Shown here: piece after piece, positions 3,311 through 64,000 of the stretch
Layout: each line of letters opens with the position of its first letter
Position numbering within the stretch: position 1 is the stretch's first letter
From: Pelagibius sp. 7325
GTDB lineage: Bacteria; Pseudomonadota; Alphaproteobacteria; Kiloniellales; Kiloniellaceae
Length of the DNA stretch: 64,000 nucleotides
Reading direction: 5' to 3'
NCBI RefSeq assembly: GCF_037652055.1
Contig: NZ_JBBKAH010000001.1
Coordinates: 66,221 to 130,220 of the forward strand
The notes under the pieces: generated by a model
What the model was told of the DNA's origin: nothing
Database searches by the model: none
The model's input: only the letters and a program-made list of their open reading frames with translations
Program-made: the position numbers and the translations under genes

Positions 3311-3509
3311 CGTCACGGGGGACTGACCCTGGCGTCCATAACGCTTTGATTATCTTGGCCTTGTGGATTTCACAGCGGGAATCCGCCGGGGCGCTTTATT
3401 CCCGCTTGGCGGGGCCCTATATTGGGGGTATTCCCACGTCGGCATGAACAGCGTGCCGCCGGCCGGGCGCAGGAATGGGCGCCGGGTCGGAAGGAAGGAG
3501 GATTATCTT

Positions 3510-4160
3510 ATGCCATTACCGCTGATGCCGAAGGCGACCGCCGTCTGGCTGATCGACAATACCGGCCTGTCCTTCGAGCAGGTGGCCGCTTTCTGCGGCC
3601 TCCATCCCCTGGAAGTGCAGGGCATCGCGGACGGCGAGGTGGCCGTGGGCATCCAGGGCATGGACCCGGTGATGTCCGGCGAACTGACCCGCGCCGAGAT
3701 CGAGCGCTGCGAGGCCGACCCGACGGCGCGCCTGGCCACGGCCAAGAGCGACCTGCCGCAGCCGACCAAGCGCACCAAGGGCCCGCGCTATACGCCGGTG
3801 GCCAAGCGCCAGGACAAGCCCGACGGCATCTACTGGCTGGTGCGCCACCATCCGGAGCTGAAGGATTCCCAGATCGCGCGCCTGATCGGCACCACCAAGA
3901 CGACCATCCAGGCGGTGCGCGAGCGCACCCACTGGAACTCGCCGAACATCCGCCCGCGCGACCCGGTGCTGCTGGGCCTGTGCAGCCAGATCGACCTCAA
4001 CGCCGCGGTAGAGAAGGCCCGCAAGGCGGCGGAAAAGGCCGGCATCACGCTGCCGCAGCCGGACATCGAGCCGGAACAGGCCTCGGCCCCCGCCCGCGAG
4101 CCCTCGGACAACCCCTTCTCGCTGGAGAACTTCGGCCTGCCGAAAAGCGGCAACGACTGA
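3510..4160 (+). CDS. DUF1013-family protein (cell-cycle regulator TrcR-like)
   Basis: Starts MPLPLMPKATAVWLIDNTGLSFEQVAAFCGLHPLEVQGIADGE with an AGGAAGGAGG RBS just upstream. Conserved alphaproteobacterial DUF1013 architecture. Confidence 0.7.
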   Translation: MPLPLMPKATAVWLIDNTGLSFEQVAAFCGLHPLEVQGIADGEVAVGIQGMDPVMSGELTRAEIERCEADPTARLATAKSDLPQPTKRTKGPRYTPVAKRQDKPDGIYWLVRHHPELKDSQIARLIGTTKTTIQAVRERTHWNSPNIRPRDPVLLGLCSQIDLNAAVEKARKAAEKAGITLPQPDIEPEQASAPAREPSDNPFSLENFGLPKSGND

Positions 4161-4315
4161 CGCCTTCCAGCGTCCCGACCAGAAAAACCCCTCGCCTTCG
4201 GACGAGGGGTTTTTTCTTGCGCGCTTCGGGGGGCCGCATGTCTCGGAATTGCATTTGTCATCCGCGGCGGCCTGCCGGTAAGTGAACCTGCTGCCGCGCA
4301 AAAAAGGAGAGTGCC

Positions 4316-5854
4316 ATGAGCACGTCGGCCAAGGACTGGCTTATCGGCAAGGCCCTGAAGGTCGTCGTCGCGGTGCCGCCGCTGCACCGCTTCGTCAATC
4401 GCCGGCTGATCAACAGCTATGCCTACGCCACCGGCTCGCGTCCGCGCGCCTTTTCCATGGCCGCCGACTACACGACCTGGCCGGGGCTGACCGACCGGCG
4501 CTACTCCGGACGCCACCTGGGCGCCCAGCGCGCCTACAACGCCGCGCTGCCGCCGCTGGACGAGGTGCTGGCGCTGTTCAAGCGGACGGAGGACCGCCGC
4601 GCGACCGACACCAGCCTGCTGTTCCCCTTCTTCGCCCAGTGGTTCACCGACAGCTTCCTGCGCACCAAGTGGAAGGAGCCCGAGAAGCAGGACTTCGCCG
4701 AGAACGAAAGCAACCACGAGATCGACCTCTGCCAGATCTACGGCATCAGCGCGGCGCAGATCGACATGCTGCGCGCCCACGAAGGCGGCCGGCTGAAAAG
4801 CCAGATGATCGGCGGCGAGGTCTTTCCCGCCGCGCTGTTCGAGGAGCGCGGCGGCACCATGGTGCTGAAGCCGGAATTCGCGACGCTCTACAGCGAAGCG
4901 AATTTCAACCGCGTCTTCGCCCGCGCCGACGACGCGCAGAAGCGCAGCGCCTTCGCGGTCGGCCTGGAGCACGGCAACTCGACCATCGGCAACGCGCTGA
5001 TGAACACCCTGTTCCTGCGCGAGCACAATCGCGTCGCCGGCGTGCTGCAGCGCGCGCATCCCGACTGGGACGACGAGCGCCTGTTCCAGACCACGCGCAA
5101 CGCCTGCATCGTCCTGCTGCTGAAGATCGTCATCGGCGACTACATCGTGCACATCGCGCCGGCCGACTTCCCGCTGATGGTGGTGCCCGGGATGGCCGAG
5201 GAGGAAAGCTGGTACCGCACCAACTGGATCGCCGTGGAGTTCGCGCTGCTGTACCGCTGGCATGACCTGATCCCGGCGACGGCCACCTTCGGCGGCGAGA
5301 CGCGCGACGGCAGCGCGCTGCGCCACGGCAACGACTGGCTGCTGCAGGTCGGCGTCGACCAGGCCTGCCGCGACGCCTCGCGGCAGCTGGCCGGCAAGAT
5401 CGGCCTCGGCAACACGGCCGAGTTCCTGCTGGACGTGAAGAAGAGCAGCTTGCTGATGGCGCGCACCTGCAACCTGGCGCCCTACAACGCCTACCGCAAA
5501 TACTACGGCAAGCCGCCGGTGGAGAGCTTCGAGGCGCTGACCCGCGATCCGGCGCTGGCCGCCCGGCTGCAGTCGCTCTACGGCTCGATCGACAAGCTGG
5601 AGTGGTTCGTCGGCATCTTCGCCGAAGCCTTCGACGAGAAGGAGATGATGGGCGAGCTGTTGAAGACCATGGTCGCCAACGACGCCTTCACCCAGGCGCT
5701 GACCAATCCGCTGCTGGCCAAGGGCGTCTACAACGCCGACACCTTCTCCAAGGAAGGCATGGCGATCATCGACGAGACCAACGGCCTGGCCGACGTGATC
5801 GTGCGCAACACCGGCATCACCGACAAGGCCGAGGTCGGCTTCAAGATCCGCTAG
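4316..5854 (+). CDS. haem peroxidase of the peroxidase-cyclooxygenase (animal haem peroxidase) superfamily; cyclooxygenase-like fatty-acid oxygenase candidate
   Basis: 512 aa. FFAQWFTDSF, HEIDLCQIYG and LFLREHNRV match the distal-His, catalytic and proximal-His signature blocks of PGHS/COX-type enzymes (AQHFTHQFF, HGVDLGHIYG, LWLREHNRV). Confidence 0.75.
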   Translation: MSTSAKDWLIGKALKVVVAVPPLHRFVNRRLINSYAYATGSRPRAFSMAADYTTWPGLTDRRYSGRHLGAQRAYNAALPPLDEVLALFKRTEDRRATDTSLLFPFFAQWFTDSFLRTKWKEPEKQDFAENESNHEIDLCQIYGISAAQIDMLRAHEGGRLKSQMIGGEVFPAALFEERGGTMVLKPEFATLYSEANFNRVFARADDAQKRSAFAVGLEHGNSTIGNALMNTLFLREHNRVAGVLQRAHPDWDDERLFQTTRNACIVLLLKIVIGDYIVHIAPADFPLMVVPGMAEEESWYRTNWIAVEFALLYRWHDLIPATATFGGETRDGSALRHGNDWLLQVGVDQACRDASRQLAGKIGLGNTAEFLLDVKKSSLLMARTCNLAPYNAYRKYYGKPPVESFEALTRDPALAARLQSLYGSIDKLEWFVGIFAEAFDEKEMMGELLKTMVANDAFTQALTNPLLAKGVYNADTFSKEGMAIIDETNGLADVIVRNTGITDKAEVGFKIR

Positions 5855-5933
5855 CCGGGCTGCCAACACGCACGCTGTCGTCCCGGTCCTTGTCCCTATG
5901 ATGGTCGCACATTTCTGTCGGCGACTGAGGCTG

Positions 5934-6150
5934 TCATCCCGGCCAAGCGAGCGGAGCGAGCGCGAGCCGGGATCTATGGTTGAGGTCGGGCTCCGGACAT
6001 AGCCATGGGCGTCTCAGTGGATGCCGCAGTCGAGCATCCCCAAGCACTGGGCAACGCGGAGCGGAAGAAATCTGGGGCGGGGCCGGCGCTCGTTCGATCC
6101 ATGGACCCCGGCTCGCGCTCGCTGTCGCTCGCTTGGCCGGGGTGACATCT
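5934..6150. repeat. MITE-like element with ~42-bp terminal inverted repeats (family C)
   Basis: gtcatcccggccaagcgagcggagcgagcgcgagccgggatc at 5934-5975 and its reverse complement at about 6104-6148. A second copy with the same termini lies at 63760-63967. Confidence 0.65.
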
Positions 6151-6202
6151 TGGGTGAGCGAGAGATGTATATCGCACAGAGAGCGACTCCCCGAACGGCG
6201 CG

Positions 6203-7198
6203 TCACGCCAGTTCCTTCACCTTGGCCCAGAGCGCGGCGTCGACGGCAAAGCCGCGGTGCAGGGCGTGGCGCAGGGCGTCGCCCTTGGCGAGGCCGGGCA
6301 GGTGCACGCCCTCTTCGGCGGCTACGGCGTCGAGCCAGGACTGCAGCTGCGCGTGAAAGCCGGCGTGCGGCGCGATCGCCAGGATGAAGACGCCGCTGCC
6401 CGGCGACTTGCCGCCCTTGTTGAAGGCCGGCGCGTCCTTCGACCAGTTGGCGCCGGTGAGGCCCGCGGCCAGCAGCTCGACCATCAGCGCGATGTTGGCG
6501 CCGCGCACGCCGCCGAAAGGCAGGACGCTGCCGGCCAGCGCCGCGCGGGCGTCGGTGGTGGGGTGCCCGGCGGGATCGAGCGCCCAGCCTTCGGGGATCT
6601 CGCGCGCAGCCTCGGCATGCTCGCGGATCTTCGCCAGCGAGGCGGCGGAGGACGACTGGTCGATGACAAGCGCGGCGGACTCCTCGCCCGTCGGCACCGC
6701 GAAGGCCAGCGGGTTGGTGCAGAAGACCGGCGCCTTGCCGCCGGAGGCCGCCATCACCGCCGGGCCGGCATTGGCGGCGACCAGCGCGGCGAGGCCGTGC
6801 GCCTCGGCCAGCTTGCGGGCGAAGAAGCCGAGCGCGCCGCAGGGGTAGCCGTTGGCGAGCGTGAGCACGGCGACGCCCAGCGTCTGCGCCCCTTCGGCGA
6901 GGCGCGGCAGCGCGCGCTCGAAGCCCAGATGCGGGAAGCCCTCGGCGACGTCGACACGGGTCACGGCCTCGGTGATCTCTTCGATTACCGGCTCGGCATC
7001 GCCCCGAATGCGGCCGTCGCGCAGCGCGTCCCGGTAGGCGATGAGATGCTTCAGGCCGACGCCGCGGTTGCCCTCGGCCTCGGCCGTGACGAGGGCGCGG
7101 CCGGTGGCCGCCGCGTGCTCCGGCGTGGCGCCGGCGGCCTTCAGGGCGGCCACCGCGGCGGCCAGCGCCTCGTTGAAGCTGACGGTAATCTCGGCCAC
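6203..7198 (-). CDS. Ldh_2 family oxidoreductase (malate/L-lactate/sulfolactate dehydrogenase family)
   Basis: 331 aa. N-terminal MAEITVSFNEALAAAVAALKAAGA and a GHKGxGL-type block (GNRGVGLKHL), typical of the Ldh_2 family. Confidence 0.7.
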   Translation of the reverse strand: MAEITVSFNEALAAAVAALKAAGATPEHAAATGRALVTAEAEGNRGVGLKHLIAYRDALRDGRIRGDAEPVIEEITEAVTRVDVAEGFPHLGFERALPRLAEGAQTLGVAVLTLANGYPCGALGFFARKLAEAHGLAALVAANAGPAVMAASGGKAPVFCTNPLAFAVPTGEESAALVIDQSSSAASLAKIREHAEAAREIPEGWALDPAGHPTTDARAALAGSVLPFGGVRGANIALMVELLAAGLTGANWSKDAPAFNKGGKSPGSGVFILAIAPHAGFHAQLQSWLDAVAAEEGVHLPGLAKGDALRHALHRGFAVDAALWAKVKELA

Positions 7199-8026: not shown

Positions 8027-8340
8027 GTGTCAAGATTCCCTGAGTTTGCTTGGAACGGCGGCCCCCAATGTGACCGGACGGCGCGGCGGGAGCAAGGGGG
8101 CGGGAACCGCTCCCTTGCCGCCTATCCCCGATGGGAAAGAGGGGCTCCGCATCAGCGGAAGGGGGCCAGGTGAGCGTTGCGCGCGAGGAGCACAGCCGCT
8201 AGAAGCTGTTGCGAATAGCTCTCAATTGCAGCATTCTGTGTACGGGGATACCGATCGCCTTGATGTTCCGGGATCGAGCAACGTCGGTCGGAAGGGGAAC
8301 ATCGGCCTTGGGCCAGAACGCCACGACACTGTCGCTCTTC

Positions 8341-8820
8341 ATGGCGCACCGCAACGCCCTGGTGGACTACGCCAGCGTCATTGTGGGCAACCGCGCGCAG
8401 GCGGAGGACCTGGTGCAGGAGGCCTGGTTGCGGTTCGATGCCGCGTCGCAAAACCGATCCCTCGAAGAACCGCAGGGCTACCTCTACAGCATCGTGCGAA
8501 ACCTGGCTTTGGACGGCTACCGACGTGCGGCGCGGGAACGCAAGGTGGTCAGCACCCGGCAGTTCGAGGAAGACGCCCGCAACGCCGCGGACGCGCGGGC
8601 CGATCCCGAGACAATCGCACTGCATCGCGACGAACTGGAGCAGGTCATGGCGGCCCTGGATGAGCTGCCGGAGCGCACCCGCATCGCCTTGGAAATGCAC
8701 CGCTTCGGCGGCTGCAAGCTGCGCGAGATCGCCGATTTTCTCGGCATTTCACTGGCTATGGCGCATGTCCTGGTCGCCAAGGGCGTCGAGCATTGCAAGC
8801 GCCGCCTGGGCCGGCGGTGA
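8341..8820 (+). CDS. fecI: ECF sigma-70 factor, FecI-like
   Basis: Sigma-70 region 2 (DLVQEAWLRF..YLYSIVRNLALDGYR) and region 4 (LPERTRIALEMHRFGGCKLREIADFLGIS). Followed by a FecR gene and a TonB-dependent receptor. Confidence 0.8.
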   Translation: MAHRNALVDYASVIVGNRAQAEDLVQEAWLRFDAASQNRSLEEPQGYLYSIVRNLALDGYRRAARERKVVSTRQFEEDARNAADARADPETIALHRDELEQVMAALDELPERTRIALEMHRFGGCKLREIADFLGISLAMAHVLVAKGVEHCKRRLGRR

Positions 8821-8943
8821 CTTTTCCGACTCCGTTATTAGAAAAGGGAGGGGCGATTGCGTCTAATTGTTGAGAGCAAGCCGGTTATCGCGGACTCCCT
8901 GCTGCACACCGCTGCCACCCGCCACGCGGACTAAGGAAGAGGC

Positions 8944-9993
8944 ATGTCCATACAGCAGTCCACAGCCGAGGACCGGGCTTCGCAGGAAGCCACGGACTGG
9001 CTTATCCTGCTGCAGGAAGATCCTGACGATTCGGCCCTCCGGCAAAGGTTCGAGGCTTGGCTGGCGCAGAGTCCGGTGCACCGGCACGCCTGGGCGACCA
9101 CCGAGGTTACGGCTGAGGCGATCAAGGCGGCCCCGCCCGCGTTCGCCGATCGTTGGCAGCCCGCCGTCGCAGCCAGGCGGAAAACGGCATACGTCCAAGC
9201 AACGGCTTCGACGGCGCCGGCCTCTGCCCCGTCCGGCCACCGCCCGTTCAAGCATCGTCTGTTTCAGCGCCGCCGGGCAGCCTTGCCCTTCGCCGCACTC
9301 GCGGCGGCAGCCTGCCTCCTGATCGCGATGCTGCCCGATATCCTGATCCTGCAGCAGGCGGACTACCATACCGGTACGGGCGAGTCCCTGACCGTGCAAC
9401 TGGCGGATGGCAGCACGGTCTGGCTGGGGCCCGAGAGCGCCATCGCCGTCGATTACGATGTGGCGTCGCGCGGCATCCGCCTGCTGACAGGAGAAGCGTT
9501 TTTCGACGTGAAAGCGAATGCCGAGCGGCCGTTCCAGGTCGTGGCCGGGCCGGTACGGACGACCGTCGTCGGGACCGCCTTCGACGTCCTACGCGGCGAT
9601 GACTCCGCCAAGGTCGCGGTCGAACGCGGTATCGTGCGGGTCGATCACACCGACAGCGCACCGCCGGTCTCCGAACGGCTGACCGCAGGCCAGACAATCA
9701 GCGTCACCTGGGCCGGCACGGCATCACGCGGCAAAAGCCCGGCCACAGCGGTCGCGAGTTGGCGCCACGGCCAGCTGATCGCCCAGGACCGGCCGATGGG
9801 CGAAGTGATCGACGCCCTGCGCCGCTATTACAGGGGATCGATCATTCTGACCGATGGCAGCCTCGCCGGCCTGCCGGTGACGGGGATCTATAACCTTTCG
9901 GACCCCGAGGAAGCCCTCCGCGCTGTGGCAGAGGCCCACGGCGCCAAGGTTCGACAGATCACCCCCTGGGTCGTTGTGATCCTCTCGTTGTGA
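8944..9993 (+). CDS. fecR: FecR-family anti-sigma factor / transmembrane sensor
   Basis: 349 aa. N-terminal DUF4880-like ATDWLILLQEDPDD, a TM segment (ALPFAALAAAACLLIAML) and a C-terminal FecR domain. Confidence 0.8.
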   Translation: MSIQQSTAEDRASQEATDWLILLQEDPDDSALRQRFEAWLAQSPVHRHAWATTEVTAEAIKAAPPAFADRWQPAVAARRKTAYVQATASTAPASAPSGHRPFKHRLFQRRRAALPFAALAAAACLLIAMLPDILILQQADYHTGTGESLTVQLADGSTVWLGPESAIAVDYDVASRGIRLLTGEAFFDVKANAERPFQVVAGPVRTTVVGTAFDVLRGDDSAKVAVERGIVRVDHTDSAPPVSERLTAGQTISVTWAGTASRGKSPATAVASWRHGQLIAQDRPMGEVIDALRRYYRGSIILTDGSLAGLPVTGIYNLSDPEEALRAVAEAHGAKVRQITPWVVVILSL

Positions 9994-10152
9994 CAAATTA
10001 AGCAACGAACCCAATATCTTACGCCCATTCCGAAAAAATCTTAGAAATCCGCCCGGCGCCAGCGTTGCCTTAGTATGGGCAGCGAATGACACGCATTCGC
10101 ATTAATGTGAAAAGCATCCGCGCGTCATGCCTGCCCCGACGAATCAACCGAG

Positions 10153-12696
10153 GTGGGGAGACTTTTCGTGAAAATGGGGGCCGTGAAGAGAGGTGCAGGG
10201 GCACAGGATGCGGCGAGTCAGGCTGCGGCAAGGTCGAAAGCAGAGCGCCCGCAAAGCGAGGCGGGCCAGCCGACCCCGCAGGCTTGCCGTGCGAACGCCG
10301 CGCAGACGCGGCGGCGGCGCAGACTGCGCCGGGCGGGATTGGCCGGCGCGGTGAGCGTCACCGCCGCGATGATGGCCGCGCCGGCGATCGCGGCGGATCC
10401 CGCTGCGGCGGGCGTCGAGATCGCGCAACTGAGCGAACGCTTCACCTTCAACATCGCGGCGCAGCCGCTGGCCAGCGCTCTTACACAGTTCGGACAGCAG
10501 TCGGGGCTGCAGGTGACCGTCGACGGCGCCATCGTCCGCGACCAGCGCGTGCCCTCCGTCGCCGGCACCATGACCGCCGAGCAGGCCTTACGCCAACTGC
10601 TGACGGGCAGCGGACTGACGTATCGCCTGTCCGGCAACACCACGGTCGCCATTCAGAAGGCCGCCGCCGATGACGGTGCGGTCATGCTGGACCCGATCGT
10701 CGTGGAGACCCAGGTCGAATCAGCCTACGGGCCGGTTGACGGATATCGGGCCACCCGCTCCGCAACCGGCACGAAGATGAACACGGCGATCATGGACACG
10801 CCGGCATCGGTCCAGGTCGTGCCGCGGCAGGTCCTGGAAGACCAAAAGGCGATCCGCCTGGCCGACGCCTTGCGCAACGTCAGCAGCGTGCACAGCAGCG
10901 GCACCACCGGAAACCGAAGCGAGAACTTCATCGTACGTGGCCTGCCCTCCAGCCGAATCGCCACCGACGGCTTCCTGAGCGCCGCCACCTTCGGCGATGT
11001 CGGCTTTCTCAACACGGGCAACATCGAACGCGTCGAAGTGCTGAAAGGCCCCGCGAGCGTGCTCTACGGGGCGGCCGATCCGGGCGGCCTGATCAACATC
11101 GTCACCAAGAAGCCGGAAGAAGACGCGTTCTATACCTTCAGCGGCACCTACGGCAGCTATGACCTGTACCGCGGCGACATCGACTTCAACGTCCCGCTGA
11201 CGGAGGACGGCACGGTACTGTCACGGCTCAACGCGTCATATCAGAATGCGGACAGCTTCCGGAACTACTTCACGCGTGCCGAACGCTTCAGCATCGCCCC
11301 GTCGCTGACGTGGATGCCGAATGACCGCACCACGGTCGAGTTCAAAGCGGAATACTTTGAGCAAGAGCATCAGTACGACCGCGGGCTGGTCGTCGTCGAC
11401 GGTGATCCGCTGGCACTGCCCATAGACCGCTACCTGGGCGAGCCGGGCGACCGGGCCAAAGCGGATGAACTGCGTGTCCAGGCAGGCATCGAGCACGCCT
11501 TGTCGGACGACTGGACGGTCCGCCTGCGGGCACGCACCACCGACTCAAACTCGAACCCGCAGGACACCTATCCCCTGGGCCTTCAGGTCGACGGCCGGAC
11601 TCTGGACCGCCAATTCTACGTATTCGATCAGCACTTCCAAACCTATGCCGCCGAAGCCGGATTGGAAGGCAAACTGACGACGGCGGACGTCGAACACCAT
11701 CTGCTTTTCGGCCTGGATACCCAGCTCACCCGCTTCCATTCCCAGAACTTCACCGCGACGGCGACGAGCATCGACATCTTCGACCCCGTCTATGGCGGCG
11801 ACATCGGGCCGCTCACCAGCCTGGGTCAGCAGCAGCGCAACATCGATCTCTACGGCGGCTATCTGCAGGACATCGTCTCCATCGGCGAGCAGTGGAAGGT
11901 ATTGGTCGGCGGGCGTTTCGATATCGCCAAGACCCAGTACCAGCGGGGAGAGACCTGGGTCACCGACAAGGTGGACACTCAATTCTCACCGCGTATCGGC
12001 GTGGTCTATCAGCCCATCGAGACCGTGAGCCTTTACGCCAGCTACTCCGAATCCTTTATTCCGCTGCTGAGCGGCCAGAGCGTCGGGGACGAACCCTTGG
12101 AACCGGAGACGGGTACCCAGGTCGAGATCGGCATAAAACACACGGCCTTCGACGAGCGGCTTTCGACGACCTTCGCGCTGTTCCAGCTGACCCGTGAGAA
12201 CGTATCGACGAGTGACCTCGCCAATCCCGGATTCAGCATTCAGATCGGCGAGCAACGCTCCCGAGGCGCCGAATTGGAAGTCGCCGGCGAGGTGCTGCCC
12301 GGCTGGCAGGTGATCGGTTCGCTGTCCTACCTCGATTCCGAGGTCACCAAGGACAATACGTTCTCCGAAGGAAACCGTTTGCCCAACGTGCCGGAATGGA
12401 GCGGCAGCATCTGGAGCACCTACGCCTTGCAGGATCCCACCTTCGAAGGACTGGAACTGGGTGCCGGCGTCTTCGTCGTCGGCAAACGTGAAGGAGACCT
12501 GAACAACAGCTTCACTGTGCCGGGCTATGCCCGCGTCGACCTGATGGCCCGCTACGAGCTGGTAGAGGACGTCGATCTGTCGGTGAACATCTACAATCTG
12601 TTCGACACCGAATACGTCGAGGCATCCGCCAGTGCCCGGGAAATCTATACCGGAGCGCCATTGACGGCTTTGGCAACCCTCTCCGTCCGGTTCTGA
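10153..12696 (+). CDS. TonB-dependent siderophore receptor with N-terminal STN signalling domain (FecA-like)
   Basis: Twin-Arg signal region. The STN domain is FNIAAQPLASALTQFGQQSGLQVTVD. Plug and barrel follow, with a terminal LSVRF aromatic residue. The true start is probably an internal GTG/ATG near 10.28 kb. Confidence 0.85.
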   Translation: MGRLFVKMGAVKRGAGAQDAASQAAARSKAERPQSEAGQPTPQACRANAAQTRRRRRLRRAGLAGAVSVTAAMMAAPAIAADPAAAGVEIAQLSERFTFNIAAQPLASALTQFGQQSGLQVTVDGAIVRDQRVPSVAGTMTAEQALRQLLTGSGLTYRLSGNTTVAIQKAAADDGAVMLDPIVVETQVESAYGPVDGYRATRSATGTKMNTAIMDTPASVQVVPRQVLEDQKAIRLADALRNVSSVHSSGTTGNRSENFIVRGLPSSRIATDGFLSAATFGDVGFLNTGNIERVEVLKGPASVLYGAADPGGLINIVTKKPEEDAFYTFSGTYGSYDLYRGDIDFNVPLTEDGTVLSRLNASYQNADSFRNYFTRAERFSIAPSLTWMPNDRTTVEFKAEYFEQEHQYDRGLVVVDGDPLALPIDRYLGEPGDRAKADELRVQAGIEHALSDDWTVRLRARTTDSNSNPQDTYPLGLQVDGRTLDRQFYVFDQHFQTYAAEAGLEGKLTTADVEHHLLFGLDTQLTRFHSQNFTATATSIDIFDPVYGGDIGPLTSLGQQQRNIDLYGGYLQDIVSIGEQWKVLVGGRFDIAKTQYQRGETWVTDKVDTQFSPRIGVVYQPIETVSLYASYSESFIPLLSGQSVGDEPLEPETGTQVEIGIKHTAFDERLSTTFALFQLTRENVSTSDLANPGFSIQIGEQRSRGAELEVAGEVLPGWQVIGSLSYLDSEVTKDNTFSEGNRLPNVPEWSGSIWSTYALQDPTFEGLELGAGVFVVGKREGDLNNSFTVPGYARVDLMARYELVEDVDLSVNIYNLFDTEYVEASASAREIYTGAPLTALATLSVRF

Positions 12697-12720
12697 CCCC
12701 ATGAGGTCTGCCTGCCCGCG

Positions 12721-13008
12721 ATGACCGCCAAGACCGAAGGCGCCGCCATGGCCCTGCGCATAGCCGTCGGTATTGTCGGCGGCTATGCCCTGGCCTGCGC
12801 GGTGGCCATCTGGATTTCCTATGTCCTGCCCCTGGCCCGGGCCGATGCGGTCCTGACCGGTCAGCTCATCAGCTTCATCGTCTACGCCGGTGCCGTGCTG
12901 TGGGTCTTCGCCGTGCGCAGCGCGCTGCGCGCCACCGTCGGCATTTCGCTGGCGATCCTGGCGTTCAGCGCCCTCGCATGGCTCTGCGCCCCCGCGATCT
13001 CAGCGTGA
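12721..13008 (+). CDS. DUF3649-family small membrane protein
   Basis: 95-aa double-TM protein that conventionally follows TonB receptors and precedes PepSY-TM proteins. Confidence 0.55.
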   Translation: MTAKTEGAAMALRIAVGIVGGYALACAVAIWISYVLPLARADAVLTGQLISFIVYAGAVLWVFAVRSALRATVGISLAILAFSALAWLCAPAISA

Positions 13009-13021
13009 AGGAGGCCGCATC

Positions 13022-14572
13022 ATGAAGGGTGCGTTCCGCCCGTCGATGAGCTGGCTGCACACCTGGGCCGGTCTCGTTGTCGGCTGGGTACTGTTCTTCA
13101 TCTTCCTGACGGGGACCGCCGGCTACTTCGATGCCGAAATCGATCGCTGGATGCAGCCGGAGCGCCCGCTGATCGAGCAGAAGGCAAGCGCCCCCCAGGA
13201 GGCCGACGGCGCGCGCCGCTTCCTGGAACGCCAGGCAGGGAATGCCGAACGCTGGCTCATCGTTCTGTCCGGCGACCGGCTGCCCGACGTCAGGCTGTTC
13301 TGGCGCAACCCGCCGACGGCGGCCGGCGCCGCCGCGGGAGAAGAATACCTGGAGCCGGCCACCGGCAATCCCGTTTCCTACCGCAAAACCGGCGGCGGCC
13401 AGTTGCTGTACAAGATGCACTACCGCCTGCACTACCTGCCCGAGGTAGCCGCCTACTGGCTGGTCGGGCTCTGCACCATGGCGATGCTGGTCGGTATCGT
13501 AACCGGCGTGATCGTTCACAAGAGGATCTTTCGCGACTTCTTCACGCTGCGCCTCGCCAAAGGGCAGCGGTCCTGGCTGGATGCGCACAACGGGCTCAGC
13601 GTCCTCGCCCTGCCTTTTCATCTGATGATCACCTATTCCGGGCTGATGTTCCTAGTCAGTTTCTACATGGCCCCGGTTGTTGTCGCGTCCTACGGACTGG
13701 AGGGCGCCGGCCGGGGCGTTTACTTCGACGAACTGTTCGAACGGGGCACAGGCGTAGCGCGCAGCGGCGAGGCCGCGCCGCTGGCGCCCTTGGGGCCCAT
13801 GGTCGCTGAAGCGGAACACCGCATGGGCGTCGGCGCGGTCTCCTTCATCGATGTCAGCCATCCCGGCGACACCAACGCGCGGGTGGCGGTTACCGGTGGC
13901 GCGCCGCACCCCACGCGCCGGGACCAGCGTTTGCTGTTCGACGGTGTGAGCGGCAGGCTGCTCTCCGAGTCCGGGCCGCGCAGCGCGCCGCTCGTCGTGT
14001 TCGAAAGCCTGCTGGGGCTGCACGAGGGGCTGTTTGCAGGCCCCGTGCTGCGCTGGCTGTATTTTCTCTCAGGCGCCATGGGCACGGCGATGATCGCCGC
14101 CGGGCTGATCCTCTGGACAGTGAAGCGGCGCGCAAGAGCCGGCGATACGACAGGCTTTCGCCTGGTCGAGTGCCTGAACATCGGCACCCTCGCCGGGCTG
14201 CCGATCGCCCTTGCCGCCTACTTCTGGGCCAACCGCCTGATTCCCGTCGGGATCGATGACCGTGCCGCCTGGGAAGGGCACAGTTTGTTCCTCACCTGGG
14301 CCGTGCTGCTGATCCATCCCTTCCTGCGCCCGGCGGCGCGCGCCTGGCGCGAGCAACTGTGGCTCGCCGCCGCGGCCTTTGCCCTGTTGCCGGCGGTGAA
14401 CGCGCTGACGACCGCGCGCCACCTGGGAATCACCCTGCCAGCCGGAATATGGGATCTGGCGGGCATCGACCTGGCCTTCCTGACGACCGGCCTGGCCTTC
14501 GCCGCCGCCGCGCTGGCGGTGACACCGCACACAGGCTCCGCCAGGGCGCCGCGCCGGAGACCGGCCGAATGA
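13022..14572 (+). CDS. PepSY-associated TM helix protein (PiuB-like siderophore-interacting membrane protein)
   Basis: Starts MKGAFRPSMSWLHTWAGLVVGW after a GAAGGAGG RBS. Multiple TM helices, with conserved His residues in the TM segments. Confidence 0.8.
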   Translation: MKGAFRPSMSWLHTWAGLVVGWVLFFIFLTGTAGYFDAEIDRWMQPERPLIEQKASAPQEADGARRFLERQAGNAERWLIVLSGDRLPDVRLFWRNPPTAAGAAAGEEYLEPATGNPVSYRKTGGGQLLYKMHYRLHYLPEVAAYWLVGLCTMAMLVGIVTGVIVHKRIFRDFFTLRLAKGQRSWLDAHNGLSVLALPFHLMITYSGLMFLVSFYMAPVVVASYGLEGAGRGVYFDELFERGTGVARSGEAAPLAPLGPMVAEAEHRMGVGAVSFIDVSHPGDTNARVAVTGGAPHPTRRDQRLLFDGVSGRLLSESGPRSAPLVVFESLLGLHEGLFAGPVLRWLYFLSGAMGTAMIAAGLILWTVKRRARAGDTTGFRLVECLNIGTLAGLPIALAAYFWANRLIPVGIDDRAAWEGHSLFLTWAVLLIHPFLRPAARAWREQLWLAAAAFALLPAVNALTTARHLGITLPAGIWDLAGIDLAFLTTGLAFAAAALAVTPHTGSARAPRRRPAE

Positions 14573-14886
14573 CGGCATTGTCCCTGCTGCTTGCCTACGG
14601 GGGATTCGCCGGCCTTGCCCTGGCCCAGGAGCGGCACGCCCGTCAGGCCTTGCAGCGCACCCTGTCGAACCGCCTGCAGCAGTGGTTCCGCATGAGCGGG
14701 GCGCTCTGCCTGTCCGCTGCATTGATCGCCTGCATCACAGCGGCCGGCACCGCCAGCGGCATCGTCCTGTGGTGTGGCGTCCTCTCGGCTGCCGCGGTGG
14801 CACTGCTGCTGATGCTGTGCCTTGCGCCGCGCTGGTTCTTCATGCCGCCCTTGCTGCTGATCCCCTTTGCCTTCTCCGTGACATGA
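14568..14886 (+). CDS. DUF3325-family membrane protein
   Basis: MTALSLLLAYGGFAGLALAQERHARQALQ... Its ATG overlaps the PepSY stop in an ATGA junction. Usual partner of PepSY-TM proteins. Confidence 0.55.
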
Positions 14887-63693: not shown

Positions 63694-63759
63694 GGACTGG
63701 CGACTCCCTCGACAACGACAGTCACCGTTTTCTTCCGGCCGTCTCCAAACTGTCACCCC

Positions 63760-63967
63760 GGACAAGCGAGCCTGAGCGAGCGCGATCCGGGGTCTATGGC
63801 AGGTCCAAGCTCCCGGCAAAGCAGGAGGGCCCGCATCTGGGCCGGGCATAGGCGTCGGCGCAGCGCACTACAGGGGCTTTCAGCCGAGCGAGCGACTGCG
63901 AAGCCTGGCGCCCGACACTTCAATGGATCCCGGCTCGCGCTCGCTCCGCTCGCTTGGCCGGGATGAC
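63760..63967. repeat. MITE-like element family C (second copy)
   Basis: ctgtcaccccggacaagcgagcctgagcgagcgcgatccgggg at 63761-63803 and gatcccggctcgcgctcgctccgctcgcttggccgggatgac at about 63926-63967. Same termini as 5934-6150. Confidence 0.65.
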
Positions 63968-64000
63968 ATGCTGAGTAACCGACAGGGATGCGTGAACATC

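What the first reader, a model, noticed from the sequence alone, without database searches (positions are those of the whole stretch)
4316..5854. Bacterial cyclooxygenase-like haem peroxidase
The 512-aa protein carries the three signature blocks of prostaglandin-H-synthase-type enzymes in the right order and spacing (FFAQWFTDSF, HEIDLCQIYG, LFLREHNRV). It lacks the EGF and membrane-binding N-terminal modules. Bacterial members of this clade are rare, and the few studied make oxylipins from unsaturated fatty acids. Flanking genes (DUF1013, Qor) give no pathway context.
Basis: partly seen in the sequence, partly recalled or inferred. Interest (0 to 1): 0.6.

Follow-up and report, generated by a model that had tools for sequence, protein, structure and literature searches.

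The report
Stand-alone bacterial cyclooxygenase-family fatty-acid dioxygenase
The gene is real and encodes a bacterial relative of cyclooxygenase, most likely a haem enzyme that adds O2 to C16-C18 unsaturated fatty acids rather than making prostaglandins; its family is widespread in bacteria and has one studied member, so it is a new member of a known kind.

Summary
Window 4316-5854 (+) is an intact 512-aa gene, and all three quoted motifs are present. It has its own Shine-Dalgarno site and lies downstream of a terminator. Its best matches by sequence (E~1e-53) and by predicted fold (TM 0.86) are PGHS-1/2, far ahead of other haem peroxidases and plant alpha-dioxygenase.

The catalytic Tyr (Tyr313), proximal His (His316), Tyr348 equivalent (Tyr276) and Gln203 equivalent are invariant. 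The canonical distal His is replaced by an invariant Asp112. His219 sits at the position of the peroxidase distal Arg. The arachidonate and cyclisation residues of COX (Arg120, Tyr355, Glu524, Gly526, Ser530, Gly533) are all different.

The same FTDSF motif, Phe for Tyr504, Ala for Ser530 and Gln for Gly533 are published for the Nostoc linoleate 10S-dioxygenase, the only characterised bacterial member. Relatives are fused to, or sit next to, catalase-related, P450, lipoxygenase and patatin modules. This gene has no such partner within 64 kb.

Relatives occur in at least 567 species genomes, so the family is uncommon but not rare. Verdict: a stand-alone haem fatty-acid dioxygenase of the 10S-DOX-like branch, not a prostaglandin synthase. 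Substrate and regiochemistry are unknown.

The parts
4316..5854 (+). CDS (512 aa plus stop) of the COX-family haem dioxygenase
   Evidence: ORF list and translation; Pfam PF03098; PGHS best PDB match; AF2 model pLDDT 92.6 with COX fold, TM 0.86
4304..4309 (+). Shine-Dalgarno AAGGAG, 6 nt upstream of the ATG
   Evidence: read directly from the sequence
4188..4218 (+). intrinsic terminator of the upstream TrcR gene (CCCCTCG...CGAGGGG then TTTTTTCTT); marks the 5' limit of a separate transcription unit
   Evidence: sequence and terminator scan
4328..4423 (+). residues 5-36: two N-terminal helices matching helices C/D of the COX membrane-binding domain; Tyr35 sits at the Arg120 position
   Evidence: HMMER alignment to COX-2; secondary structure of the AF2 model
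4637..4651 (+). distal-helix codons Gln108-Trp-Phe-Thr-Asp112; Asp112 replaces the distal His207 of COX
   Evidence: residue map; invariant in the 120 closest homologues; Asp in 128, Glu in 6 and His in 0 of the 150 representatives
4970..4972 (+). His219 codon, at the position of COX Val291 and lactoperoxidase distal Arg255
   Evidence: invariant in alignment A1; Arg in 90 and His in 26 of the 150 representatives
5129..5176 (+). central substrate-recognition motif VIGDY276IVHIAPADFPL (Tyr276 = COX Tyr348)
   Evidence: compared with the published 10S-DOX motif IMxxY305IxxIT310PyxxxL (PMC13049297)
5252..5263 (+). Tyr313-Arg-Trp-His316: catalytic Tyr (COX Tyr385) and proximal haem ligand (COX His388)
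   Evidence: invariant
5672..5698 (+). terminal substrate-recognition motif V453ANDA457FTQ460A (COX Gly526->Val, Ser530->Ala, Gly533->Gln)
   Evidence: matches the published 10S-DOX motif I483GxDA487FxQ490A

Best explanation
The gene encodes a soluble or peripherally membrane-associated cytoplasmic haem b protein. It belongs to the bacterial 10S-dioxygenase-like ('Asp-type') branch of the cyclooxygenase family. Proposed mechanism, inferred by homology: His316 ligates the haem iron. A hydroperoxide oxidises the haem to a ferryl species, which oxidises Tyr313 to a tyrosyl radical. The radical abstracts an allylic or bis-allylic hydrogen from a free C16-C18 unsaturated fatty acid held in a hydrophobic channel. 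That channel is lined by Phe110/Phe114, the Tyr276 helix and the Val453-Ala461 helix. O2 then adds to the carbon radical and gives a fatty-acid hydroperoxide. No endoperoxide ring is formed, because the cyclisation and omega-pocket glycines of COX (Gly526, Gly533) are Val and Gln, and the carboxylate gate Arg120/Tyr355/Glu524 is absent. On the distal side an Asp112/His219 pair replaces the His207/Val291 of COX. This pair presumably supports the initial peroxide activation, but classical peroxidase turnover is expected to be poor, so the hydroperoxide is probably released. Many relatives have a second enzyme that transforms the hydroperoxide (catalase-related, P450 or lipoxygenase), fused or adjacent. 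This gene has none within 64 kb and is transcribed alone. Shown here: gene integrity, family and fold, residue identities and their conservation, and the genomic and fusion associations of relatives. Inferred: haem binding, the radical mechanism, the substrate class, and release of the product.
For: PGHS is the best sequence match (E 6.8e-54) and the best fold match (TM 0.86, 28% identity), using a confident model (pLDDT 92.6). Tyr313, His316, Tyr276, Gln108 and Asp112 are invariant in 120 homologues down to 54% identity and nearly so in 150 representatives down to 33%. Features published for the active Nostoc 10S-DOX are shared (PMC13049297): FTDSF, Phe at Tyr504, Ala at Ser530, an aliphatic residue at Gly526, Gln at Gly533, and retained membrane-binding-domain helices. 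That enzyme converts oleate and linoleate to 10S-hydroperoxides. Fusions in the same family: a catalase-related domain (P0126, 55% identical to the query), P450 (P0127, P0128, P0132, P0149, P0168) and patatin phospholipase (P0145). Gene neighbours in other species: lipoxygenase directly downstream in 8 loci (Pfam E 6.5e-59), a catalase-related ORF in 7 loci, and P450 in 2 loci. The COX arachidonate and cyclisation residues are not conserved.
Against: Nothing biochemical was tested, and the only characterised relative is distant: the nearest representative carrying its motifs is 38% identical. The N-terminal half of the 10S-DOX terminal substrate motif (GRxxSxIPAxxAR) is not conserved here (FDEKEMMGELLKT), so regiospecificity cannot be transferred. 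There is no partner gene or lipid-related operon in the window, and no conserved neighbour outside Kiloniellaceae/Pelagibius. Whether the host has a suitable free fatty-acid substrate was not examined. With no distal His, haem activation is mechanistically unexplained.
Confidence: 0.7

Rival explanations
1. It is a genuine prostaglandin-endoperoxide (PGH) synthase. It would convert C20 polyunsaturated fatty acids to PGG2/PGH2-like endoperoxides, as the 'prostaglandin-endoperoxide synthase 2' labels on JGI homologues imply.
For: PGHS-1/2 are the top PDB matches by sequence and by fold. Tyr385, His388, Tyr348, Trp387, Leu384, Phe381 and Phe205/209 equivalents are conserved. Automatic JGI names say so.
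Against: One search shows Arg120->Tyr, Tyr355->Ala, Glu524->Thr, Gly526->Val, Ser530->Ala, Gly533->Gln and distal His207->Asp. Gly526 and Leu384 are reported to control ring cyclisation (reference 88 cited in PMC13049297). The peroxidase site that reduces PGG2 is altered. The closest characterised relative makes a simple 10S-hydroperoxide from C18 acids (PMC13049297). From general knowledge, not tested here: alphaproteobacteria of this type are not known to make C20 polyunsaturated fatty acids.
Confidence: 0.04
2. It is primarily an H2O2-consuming haem peroxidase for detoxification or one-electron substrate oxidation. The Asp112/His219 distal pair would act as the acid-base catalyst, by analogy with Asp/Arg in DyP peroxidases or Glu/His in chloroperoxidase. 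Fatty acids would not be its substrate.
For: It is a member of Pfam An_peroxidase. An acidic distal residue can replace His in other peroxidase superfamilies; DyPs have a catalytic Asp plus Arg (PMC4420034). There is no lipid-pathway partner in the window.
Against: The radical-forming Tyr313 and neighbouring Tyr276 are invariant, and the COX-type substrate-channel helices are retained. Family members are fused or adjacent to P450, catalase-related, lipoxygenase and patatin modules, which only make sense for fatty-acid hydroperoxide chemistry. The motifs that define true peroxidases of this superfamily (GQxxDHD, RxxE) are absent (against PMC4420034).
Confidence: 0.1
3. It is a fatty-acid dioxygenase using the same tyrosyl-radical mechanism, but with chemistry unlike 10S-DOX. 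Examples would be alpha-oxidation of saturated acids as in plant and cyanobacterial alpha-DOX, or oxygenation of cis-vaccenate or acyl chains at another carbon.
For: Half of the terminal substrate motif differs from the published 10S-DOX motif. Tyr35, Ala283 and Lys450/Thr451 are clade-specific. The gene stands alone, without a 10S-specific lyase partner.
Against: Plant alpha-DOX is a much poorer match (E 2e-13; TM 0.68-0.73) and it retains the distal His. Otherwise nothing argues against this reading: it is a refinement of the best explanation and not a true alternative.
Confidence: 0.3
4. It is a catalytically dead relic or a non-enzymatic haem-binding protein.
For: The canonical distal His is lost. 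There is no operon context.
Against: The ORF is intact and has a strong Shine-Dalgarno site. Every catalytic position is invariant over hundreds of homologues from several phyla. Synteny is kept across Kiloniellaceae and Pelagibius. The same Asp is present in an enzyme reported as active (PMC13049297).
Confidence: 0.03

Closest known systems
Nostoc punctiforme linoleate 10S-dioxygenase (NpDOX, UniProt B2J5P4; Brash et al. 2014, described in PMC13049297)
   Same: Both are bacterial, single-domain (542 vs 512 aa) and lack the EGF module while keeping C-terminal helices of the membrane-binding domain. Both have the FTDSF distal helix with Asp in place of His207, the catalytic Tyr and proximal His, and the Tyr348 equivalent. 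Both have Phe at Tyr504, Ala at Ser530, Ile/Val at Gly526 and Gln at Gly533. Motif spacing is nearly identical: F to Y 162 vs 166, Y to Y 37 vs 37, Y to I/V 141 vs 140, and a C-terminal tail of 52 vs 52 residues.
   Different: The Nostoc sequence itself could not be retrieved, so identity was not measured; the nearest motif-bearing representative is 38% identical. The N-terminal half of the terminal substrate motif differs. The Nostoc gene sits next to a catalase-related 10S-hydroperoxide lyase, and this gene has no such partner within 64 kb. The residue at the Val291 position is His here, while most of the family has Arg.
Animal prostaglandin H synthases (COX-1/COX-2)
   Same: Best fold and sequence match: TM 0.86, 28% identity, E~1e-53. 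Gln203, Tyr348, Phe381, Leu384, Tyr385, Trp387 and His388 equivalents are conserved.
   Different: No signal peptide or EGF domain, and only two helices of the membrane-binding domain. Distal His207->Asp and Val291->His. The Arg120/Tyr355/Glu524 gate, Ser530, Gly526 and Gly533 are all replaced. It is therefore not expected to cyclise arachidonate.
Fungal linoleate diol synthases / DOX-CYP fusion dioxygenases (8R-, 9-, 10R-DOX)
   Same: Same tyrosyl-radical haem dioxygenase design. Some bacterial relatives of the query are likewise fused to a P450.
   Different: The fungal enzymes keep the distal His, have a different N-terminal region, are 1050-1170 aa with a C-terminal P450, and are only about 21-25% identical to COX and 10S-DOX (PMC13049297). 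The query is single-domain and of the Asp type.
Plant and cyanobacterial fatty-acid alpha-dioxygenases (PDB 4kvj, 4hhs)
   Same: Same superfamily, with a catalytic Tyr and proximal His.
   Different: A much weaker match (E 2e-13; TM 0.68-0.73, rmsd 7-8 A; 16-18% identity). Alpha-DOX retains a distal His.

Membership tests
Peroxidase-cyclooxygenase superfamily (Pfam PF03098) | Significant match to the An_peroxidase profile, and an all-alpha haem peroxidase fold | tested here: met
   E 3.5e-43, 148 bits against a cut-off of 25. Fold matches to COX, alpha-DOX, MPO and LPO all have probability 1.00.
Cyclooxygenase branch (family 4 of Zamocky et al.) | Closer to PGHS than to the other families; Tyr385, His388 and Gln203 equivalents present | tested here: met
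   PGHS E~1e-53 against 1e-21 or weaker for all other peroxidases. Tyr313, His316 and Gln108.
Prostaglandin H synthase (true COX) | Distal His207 in the peroxidase site | tested here: not met
   Asp112 aligns with His207 in an ungapped block FFAQ(H/W)FT(H/D). It is invariant in the clade.
Prostaglandin H synthase (true COX) | Arachidonate carboxylate gate Arg120/Tyr355/Glu524 | tested here: not met
   Tyr35, Ala283 and Thr451 at these positions.
Prostaglandin H synthase (true COX) | Cyclisation and omega-pocket residues Gly526, Ser530, Gly533 | tested here: not met
   Val453, Ala457 and Gln460.
Prostaglandin H synthase (true COX) | N-terminal EGF domain and a four-helix membrane-binding domain | tested here: not met
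   The alignment starts at COX-2 residue 101. Only two helices (5-19, 21-36) precede the catalytic domain.
Bacterial 10S-DOX-like haem dioxygenases | FTDSF distal helix (Asp at the His207 position) together with the catalytic Tyr, proximal His and central Tyr | tested here: met
   F110TDSF, Tyr313, His316 and Tyr276, against the published F143tdsF, Y342 and Y305.
Bacterial 10S-DOX-like haem dioxygenases | Published substrate-recognition motifs (central IMxxYIxxITPyxxxL; terminal GRxxSxIPAxxARxIGxDAFxQA) | tested here: inconclusive
   Central motif: 5 of 9 specified residues identical and 2 conservative. Terminal motif: the C-terminal half (V-A-x-D-A-F-x-Q-A) matches and the N-terminal half does not.
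Bacterial 10S-DOX-like haem dioxygenases | Adjacent catalase-related hydroperoxide lyase gene | tested here: not met
   No catalase-related, P450, LOX or patatin ORF anywhere in the 64-kb window. Such a gene is present in 7 of 80 related species loci.
Bacterial 10S-DOX-like haem dioxygenases | 10S-specific dioxygenation of oleate and linoleate | not testable with these tools
   Needs enzyme assays.
Fatty-acid alpha-dioxygenase | Closest similarity to plant or cyanobacterial alpha-DOX, with the distal His retained | tested here: not met
   E 2e-13 and TM about 0.7, against COX E 1e-53 and TM 0.86. The distal residue is Asp.
Halide-oxidising animal-type peroxidases (MPO/LPO, peroxidasin, peroxinectin) | GQxxDHD distal motif, catalytic Arg and ester-forming Glu (RxxE) | tested here: not met
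   The sequence has AQWFTDSF, and EHGN where RxxE would lie (motif definitions from PMC4420034).

The most novel reading that the evidence does not exclude
The Asp112/His219 distal pair marks a sub-clade of stand-alone bacterial COX relatives that activate haem and form the tyrosyl radical by a route not seen in COX, LDS or alpha-DOX. That pair is found in about 26 of the 150 representatives, and most of the family has Asp/Arg. In marine Alphaproteobacteria, which have no hydroperoxide-processing partner, the enzyme would oxygenate the bacterium's own monounsaturated lipids (for example cis-vaccenate) to an undescribed oxylipin used as a signal or stress product.
Probability: 0.15. Interest if true: 0.6.

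Novelty: new member of a known kind. Interest (0 to 1): 0.35.

Why it matters
Bacterial cyclooxygenase relatives have been listed in sequence surveys for over a decade. In the literature searched here, only one, from a cyanobacterium, has been characterised. This gene represents the much larger group of proteobacterial and actinobacterial members that stand alone. If it were expressed and assayed, the results could show three things: what oxylipins non-photosynthetic marine bacteria make, how a COX-fold enzyme works without a distal histidine, and how the COX active site evolved from a simpler fatty-acid dioxygenase. The practical gain is modest: a candidate biocatalyst for regio- and stereospecific hydroxy fatty acids. 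Nothing here overturns current understanding.

Tried and rejected
1. The Nostoc 10S-DOX sequence could not be retrieved. The original paper (PMC4036322) is not held, the minireview has no supplement held, the AFDB library was unavailable, and a regex search for the published motifs in all retrieved proteins gave no exact hit. P0187 looked like a candidate because its FTDG F motif starts at residue 143, but its later numbering differs, so it is only a relative.
2. No exact-sequence contig was found for the query.
3. An SDR recurs as a neighbour in 15 of 80 loci. I rejected it as a partner: it is mostly convergent, and the frequency is about what chance gives for so common a family.
4. The conserved TrcR / Ldh_2 / SDR / acyl-CoA synthetase synteny was rejected as functional context. 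It holds only among close relatives and is gone at 62% identity.
5. The nearby ECF sigma / FecR / TonB-receptor genes are absent from the syntenic MAG locus, so I treated them as coincidental.
6. The Rfam scan of the flanks gave only sub-threshold noise.
7. NCBIfam has no model for this family.
8. The single-sequence PDB search with the Nitrosospira catalase-like neighbour found nothing. The profile search gave only weak hits to catalase and allene oxide synthase. Its identity was settled instead through homology to the Pfam-positive catalase domain of the fusion protein P0126.
9. No signal peptide or transmembrane segment was found, and the N-terminal helices are only weakly amphipathic.
Full report
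**Observation.** Window 4316-5854 (+) is an open reading frame of 512 codons plus stop that starts with ATG. An AAGGAG Shine-Dalgarno sequence lies 6 nt upstream of the ATG. A textbook intrinsic terminator (CCCCTCG-loop-CGAGGGG, then TTTTTTCTT; 4188-4218) ends the upstream TrcR/DUF1013 gene. The next gene downstream, Ldh_2 at 6203-7198, is convergent. So the gene is a separate, monocistronic unit. Its G+C content (0.66-0.68) is close to that of its surroundings.

**Family and fold.** Pfam assigns the protein to An_peroxidase (PF03098, E 3.5e-43). NCBIfam has no model for it. Against all PDB sequences the best matches are PGHS-2 and PGHS-1, at E 7e-54 to 2e-50 over residues 16-496. The next families are far behind: Dictyostelium peroxidase at 6e-21, a lactoperoxidase-type bacterial peroxidase at 7e-17, and rice alpha-dioxygenase at 2e-13. 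An AlphaFold2 model built from a 67-sequence alignment is confident (mean pLDDT 92.6, pTM 0.92). Foldseek places it on COX-2 and COX-1 (TM 0.86 normalised to the query, rmsd about 3 A, 28% identity). Alpha-dioxygenases score TM 0.68-0.73 and MPO-type peroxidases about 0.67. The protein is therefore a member of the cyclooxygenase branch of the superfamily.

**Active-site anatomy.** I transcribed the HMMER alignment to mouse COX-2 and converted it to standard ovine COX-1 numbering. The offset was checked at Gln203, His386 and Ser530.
- Conserved: Gln203=Gln108, Phe205/209=Phe110/114, Tyr348=Tyr276, Phe381, Leu384, Tyr385=Tyr313, Trp387=Trp315 and proximal His388=His316.
- Distal His207: replaced by Asp112, within an ungapped block flanked by identical residues.
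- COX Val291: aligns with His219. The equal-length match of query 213-292 to lactoperoxidase 249-328 puts His219 at LPO residue 255. From established knowledge of LPO, that is the catalytic distal Arg. PMC13049297 likewise notes a conserved Arg at the Val291 position in the fungal dioxygenases.
- Arachidonate-handling residues are all changed: Arg120->Tyr35, Tyr355->Ala283, Arg513->Asp440, Glu524->Thr451, Gly526->Val453, Ser530->Ala457 and Gly533->Gln460. Tyr504 is Phe431.

**Conservation.**
- In the 120 closest database homologues (96-54% identity), Gln108, Asp112, His134, Tyr313, Trp315 and His316 are invariant. His219 and Tyr276 are invariant in the 67-sequence subset A1.
- In the best 150 representatives of a 1.84-billion-protein library clustered at 50% identity (down to 33% identity to the query), position 112 is Asp in 128, Glu in 6, Asn in 1 and never His. 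Tyr313 and His316 are present in essentially all.
- Position 219 is Arg in 90 and His in 26.
- So the whole bacterial clade lacks the canonical distal His. Most members carry an Asp/Arg distal pair, and the query belongs to a minority Asp/His sub-type that includes its nearest relatives.

**Link to a characterised enzyme.** A 2026 JBC minireview (PMC13049297) describes the Nostoc punctiforme linoleate 10S-dioxygenase (UniProt B2J5P4, 542 aa; Brash et al. 2014). It is the bacterial relative closest to COX, at about 31% identity and rmsd 1.2 A.
- It retains helices B-D of the membrane-binding domain.
- It has F143tdsF where COX has F205thqF.
- It has Phe in place of Tyr504, Ile483 and Ala487 at the Gly526 and Ser530 positions, and the terminal motif ...IGxDAFxQA.
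- The query shares every one of these (F110TDSF, Phe431, Val453, Ala457, VANDAFTQA), with almost identical spacing between landmarks and an identical 52-residue C-terminal tail.
- That enzyme oxidises oleic and linoleic acid to 10S-hydroperoxides, which a separately encoded catalase-related lyase then cleaves.
That does not hold, because an active dioxygenase has the same substitution.
- I could not obtain the B2J5P4 sequence. The nearest representative carrying its motifs (P0187) is 38% identical to the query.
- The N-terminal half of the published terminal substrate motif (GRxxSxIPAxxAR) is not conserved here (FDEKEMMGELLKT). Regio- and stereospecificity therefore cannot be transferred.
- Zamocky et al. 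2015 (PMC4420034) state that bacterial cyclooxygenases were still only putative sequences. My searches found no characterised proteobacterial or actinobacterial member.

**Distribution.**
- They span Alpha-, Beta- and Gammaproteobacteria and many Actinomycetota (Solirubrobacterales, Frankia, Rhodococcus, Nocardioidaceae).
- The protein library holds 308 clusters at 50% identity with E<=1e-30.
- The family is uncommon, in roughly 0.3% of species, but hardly rare.
- The closest relatives are Kiloniellaceae MAGs (86-81%) and Pelagibius species (81-74%). The window therefore probably comes from a marine Kiloniellaceae alphaproteobacterium.

**Context.**
- Among Kiloniellaceae and Pelagibius the order is conserved: sensor kinase, DUF1192, Qor, TrcR, COX-like gene, then convergent Ldh_2, SDR and acyl-CoA synthetase. 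In Amaricoccus (62% identity) the neighbourhood is entirely different.
- I called ORFs within 7 kb either side of the gene in 80 species loci and clustered them. No family is a universal neighbour.
- Three informative partners recur in more distant members. A lipoxygenase (Pfam E 6.5e-59) lies 4-96 bp downstream on the same strand in 8 loci: Nitrosospira, Nitrosomonas, Methylomonas and a betaproteobacterial MAG. A 401-aa catalase-related ORF occurs in 7 loci, including Roseovarius (56 bp upstream, same strand) and Rhodococcus. A P450 is adjacent in a Chromatiales MAG and fused in a Roseibium MAG.
- The catalase-related identity of the 401-aa ORF rests on two results. It is homologous (E 1e-28 to 1e-55) to the C-terminal domain of the fusion protein P0126, which passes the Pfam Catalase threshold. 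A profile of it also hits coral allene oxide synthase and catalases weakly.
- Among the library representatives, the dioxygenase domain is fused to a catalase-related domain (P0126, 55% identical to the query), to P450 (five examples) and to a patatin-like phospholipase (P0145).
- These are the modules that release fatty acids or transform fatty-acid hydroperoxides. Together they give independent guilt-by-association support for a hydroperoxide-forming dioxygenase function across the family.
- None of these partners is encoded anywhere in the 64-kb window. The SDR neighbour, seen in 15 of 80 loci, is at chance frequency and mostly convergent.

**Mechanism proposed.** His316 ligates haem b. A peroxide oxidises the haem, which generates a radical on Tyr313. 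The radical abstracts an allylic hydrogen from a C16-C18 unsaturated fatty acid, and O2 adds to give a hydroperoxide. Val453 and Gln460 fill the space that Gly526 and Gly533 leave open in COX. The Arg120/Tyr355/Glu524 gate is missing, so endoperoxide formation from arachidonate is not expected. The Asp112/His219 pair replaces His207/Val291. By analogy with the Asp/Arg pair of DyP peroxidases (PMC4420034), it may provide acid-base catalysis for the first peroxide turnover. Its role is unknown, and the minireview notes how little is known about peroxidase activity in these dioxygenases. The protein has no signal peptide or transmembrane segment, and its N-terminal helices are only weakly amphipathic. 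A cytoplasmic location, perhaps peripheral to the membrane, is therefore inferred. All mechanistic steps are inferred by homology. The shown facts are the gene, the fold, the residues, their conservation, and the associations in relatives.

**Verdict.** Three claims need correcting: that the membrane-binding module is absent, that the family is rare, and the logic of the distal-His test. The protein fails several defining tests for a true PGH synthase. It passes the core tests for the 10S-DOX-like bacterial haem dioxygenase group, with substrate motifs only partly shared and no partner gene. It is a new, uncharacterised member of a known kind. Interest is moderate (0.35), and the most interesting open point is the invariant Asp/His distal pair.

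Noticed in passing
window 5914-6165 and about 63730-63990: A palindromic element of about 250 bp lies in the intergenic region just downstream of the gene. Its arms are about 60 bp each (inverted repeats 5914-5953/6126-6165 and 5955-5979/6099-6123). A second copy near the end of the window has conserved arms and a divergent centre. The core 16-mer CCCGGCCAAGCGAGCG occurs 4 times against 0.37 expected. It looks like a MITE- or REP-like repeat.
   Followed up: partly
window 8209-12696 (+): A FecI/FecR/FecA-type cell-surface signalling cluster: ECF sigma factor (8209-8820), FecR-family anti-sigma (8944-9993) and a TonB-dependent receptor with an STN domain (10153-12696). It is absent from the syntenic Kiloniellaceae MAG locus L001, which has an acyl-CoA synthetase there.
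   Followed up: partly
L068, L069, L073, L075-L078, L081 (about 10001-14700 in each locus): In Nitrosospira, Nitrosomonas, Methylomonas and a betaproteobacterial MAG, the COX-like gene is followed 4-96 bp later by a lipoxygenase gene on the same strand. In five of these loci (L068, L073, L077, L078, L081) a 401-aa catalase-related haemoprotein gene lies about 1.8 kb further on, on the opposite strand. This three-enzyme oxylipin cluster appears to be uncharacterised.
   Followed up: partly
proteins P0126, P0127, P0128, P0132, P0145, P0149, P0168; locus L065 9950-12889: These are natural fusions of the Asp-type COX-like domain. The partners are a catalase-related domain, a cytochrome P450 (N- or C-terminal) and a patatin-like phospholipase. 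P0181 (1331 aa), P0185 (1125 aa) and P0147 (729 aa) carry large extra regions with no confident Pfam match.
   Followed up: partly
L044 5831-7633 and L061 5785-7587 (+): In two Actinomycetota MAGs, a second 600-aa haem peroxidase paralogue lies a few kb upstream of the Asp-type COX-like gene on the same strand. It has a His-containing distal motif (QFMIHDWFSHG) and YRMH at the proximal site.
   Followed up: no
L072, L079, L063 (Arg); L060, L067 (Tyr); L025, L043 (Phe), at the position of query residue 219: The residue at the peroxidase distal-Arg position varies by lineage within the family. It is His in most close relatives, Arg in Kiloniella laminariae and in most distant representatives, Tyr in Aldersonia and Phe in Parvularcula. 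Asp112 never changes to His.
   Followed up: partly
window 3363-4160 (+): The TrcR/DUF1013 ORF as listed is 265 aa from a GTG start. Orthologues are called at 213-216 aa and the Pfam match starts at residue 83. The true start is probably about 50 codons further downstream.
   Followed up: no
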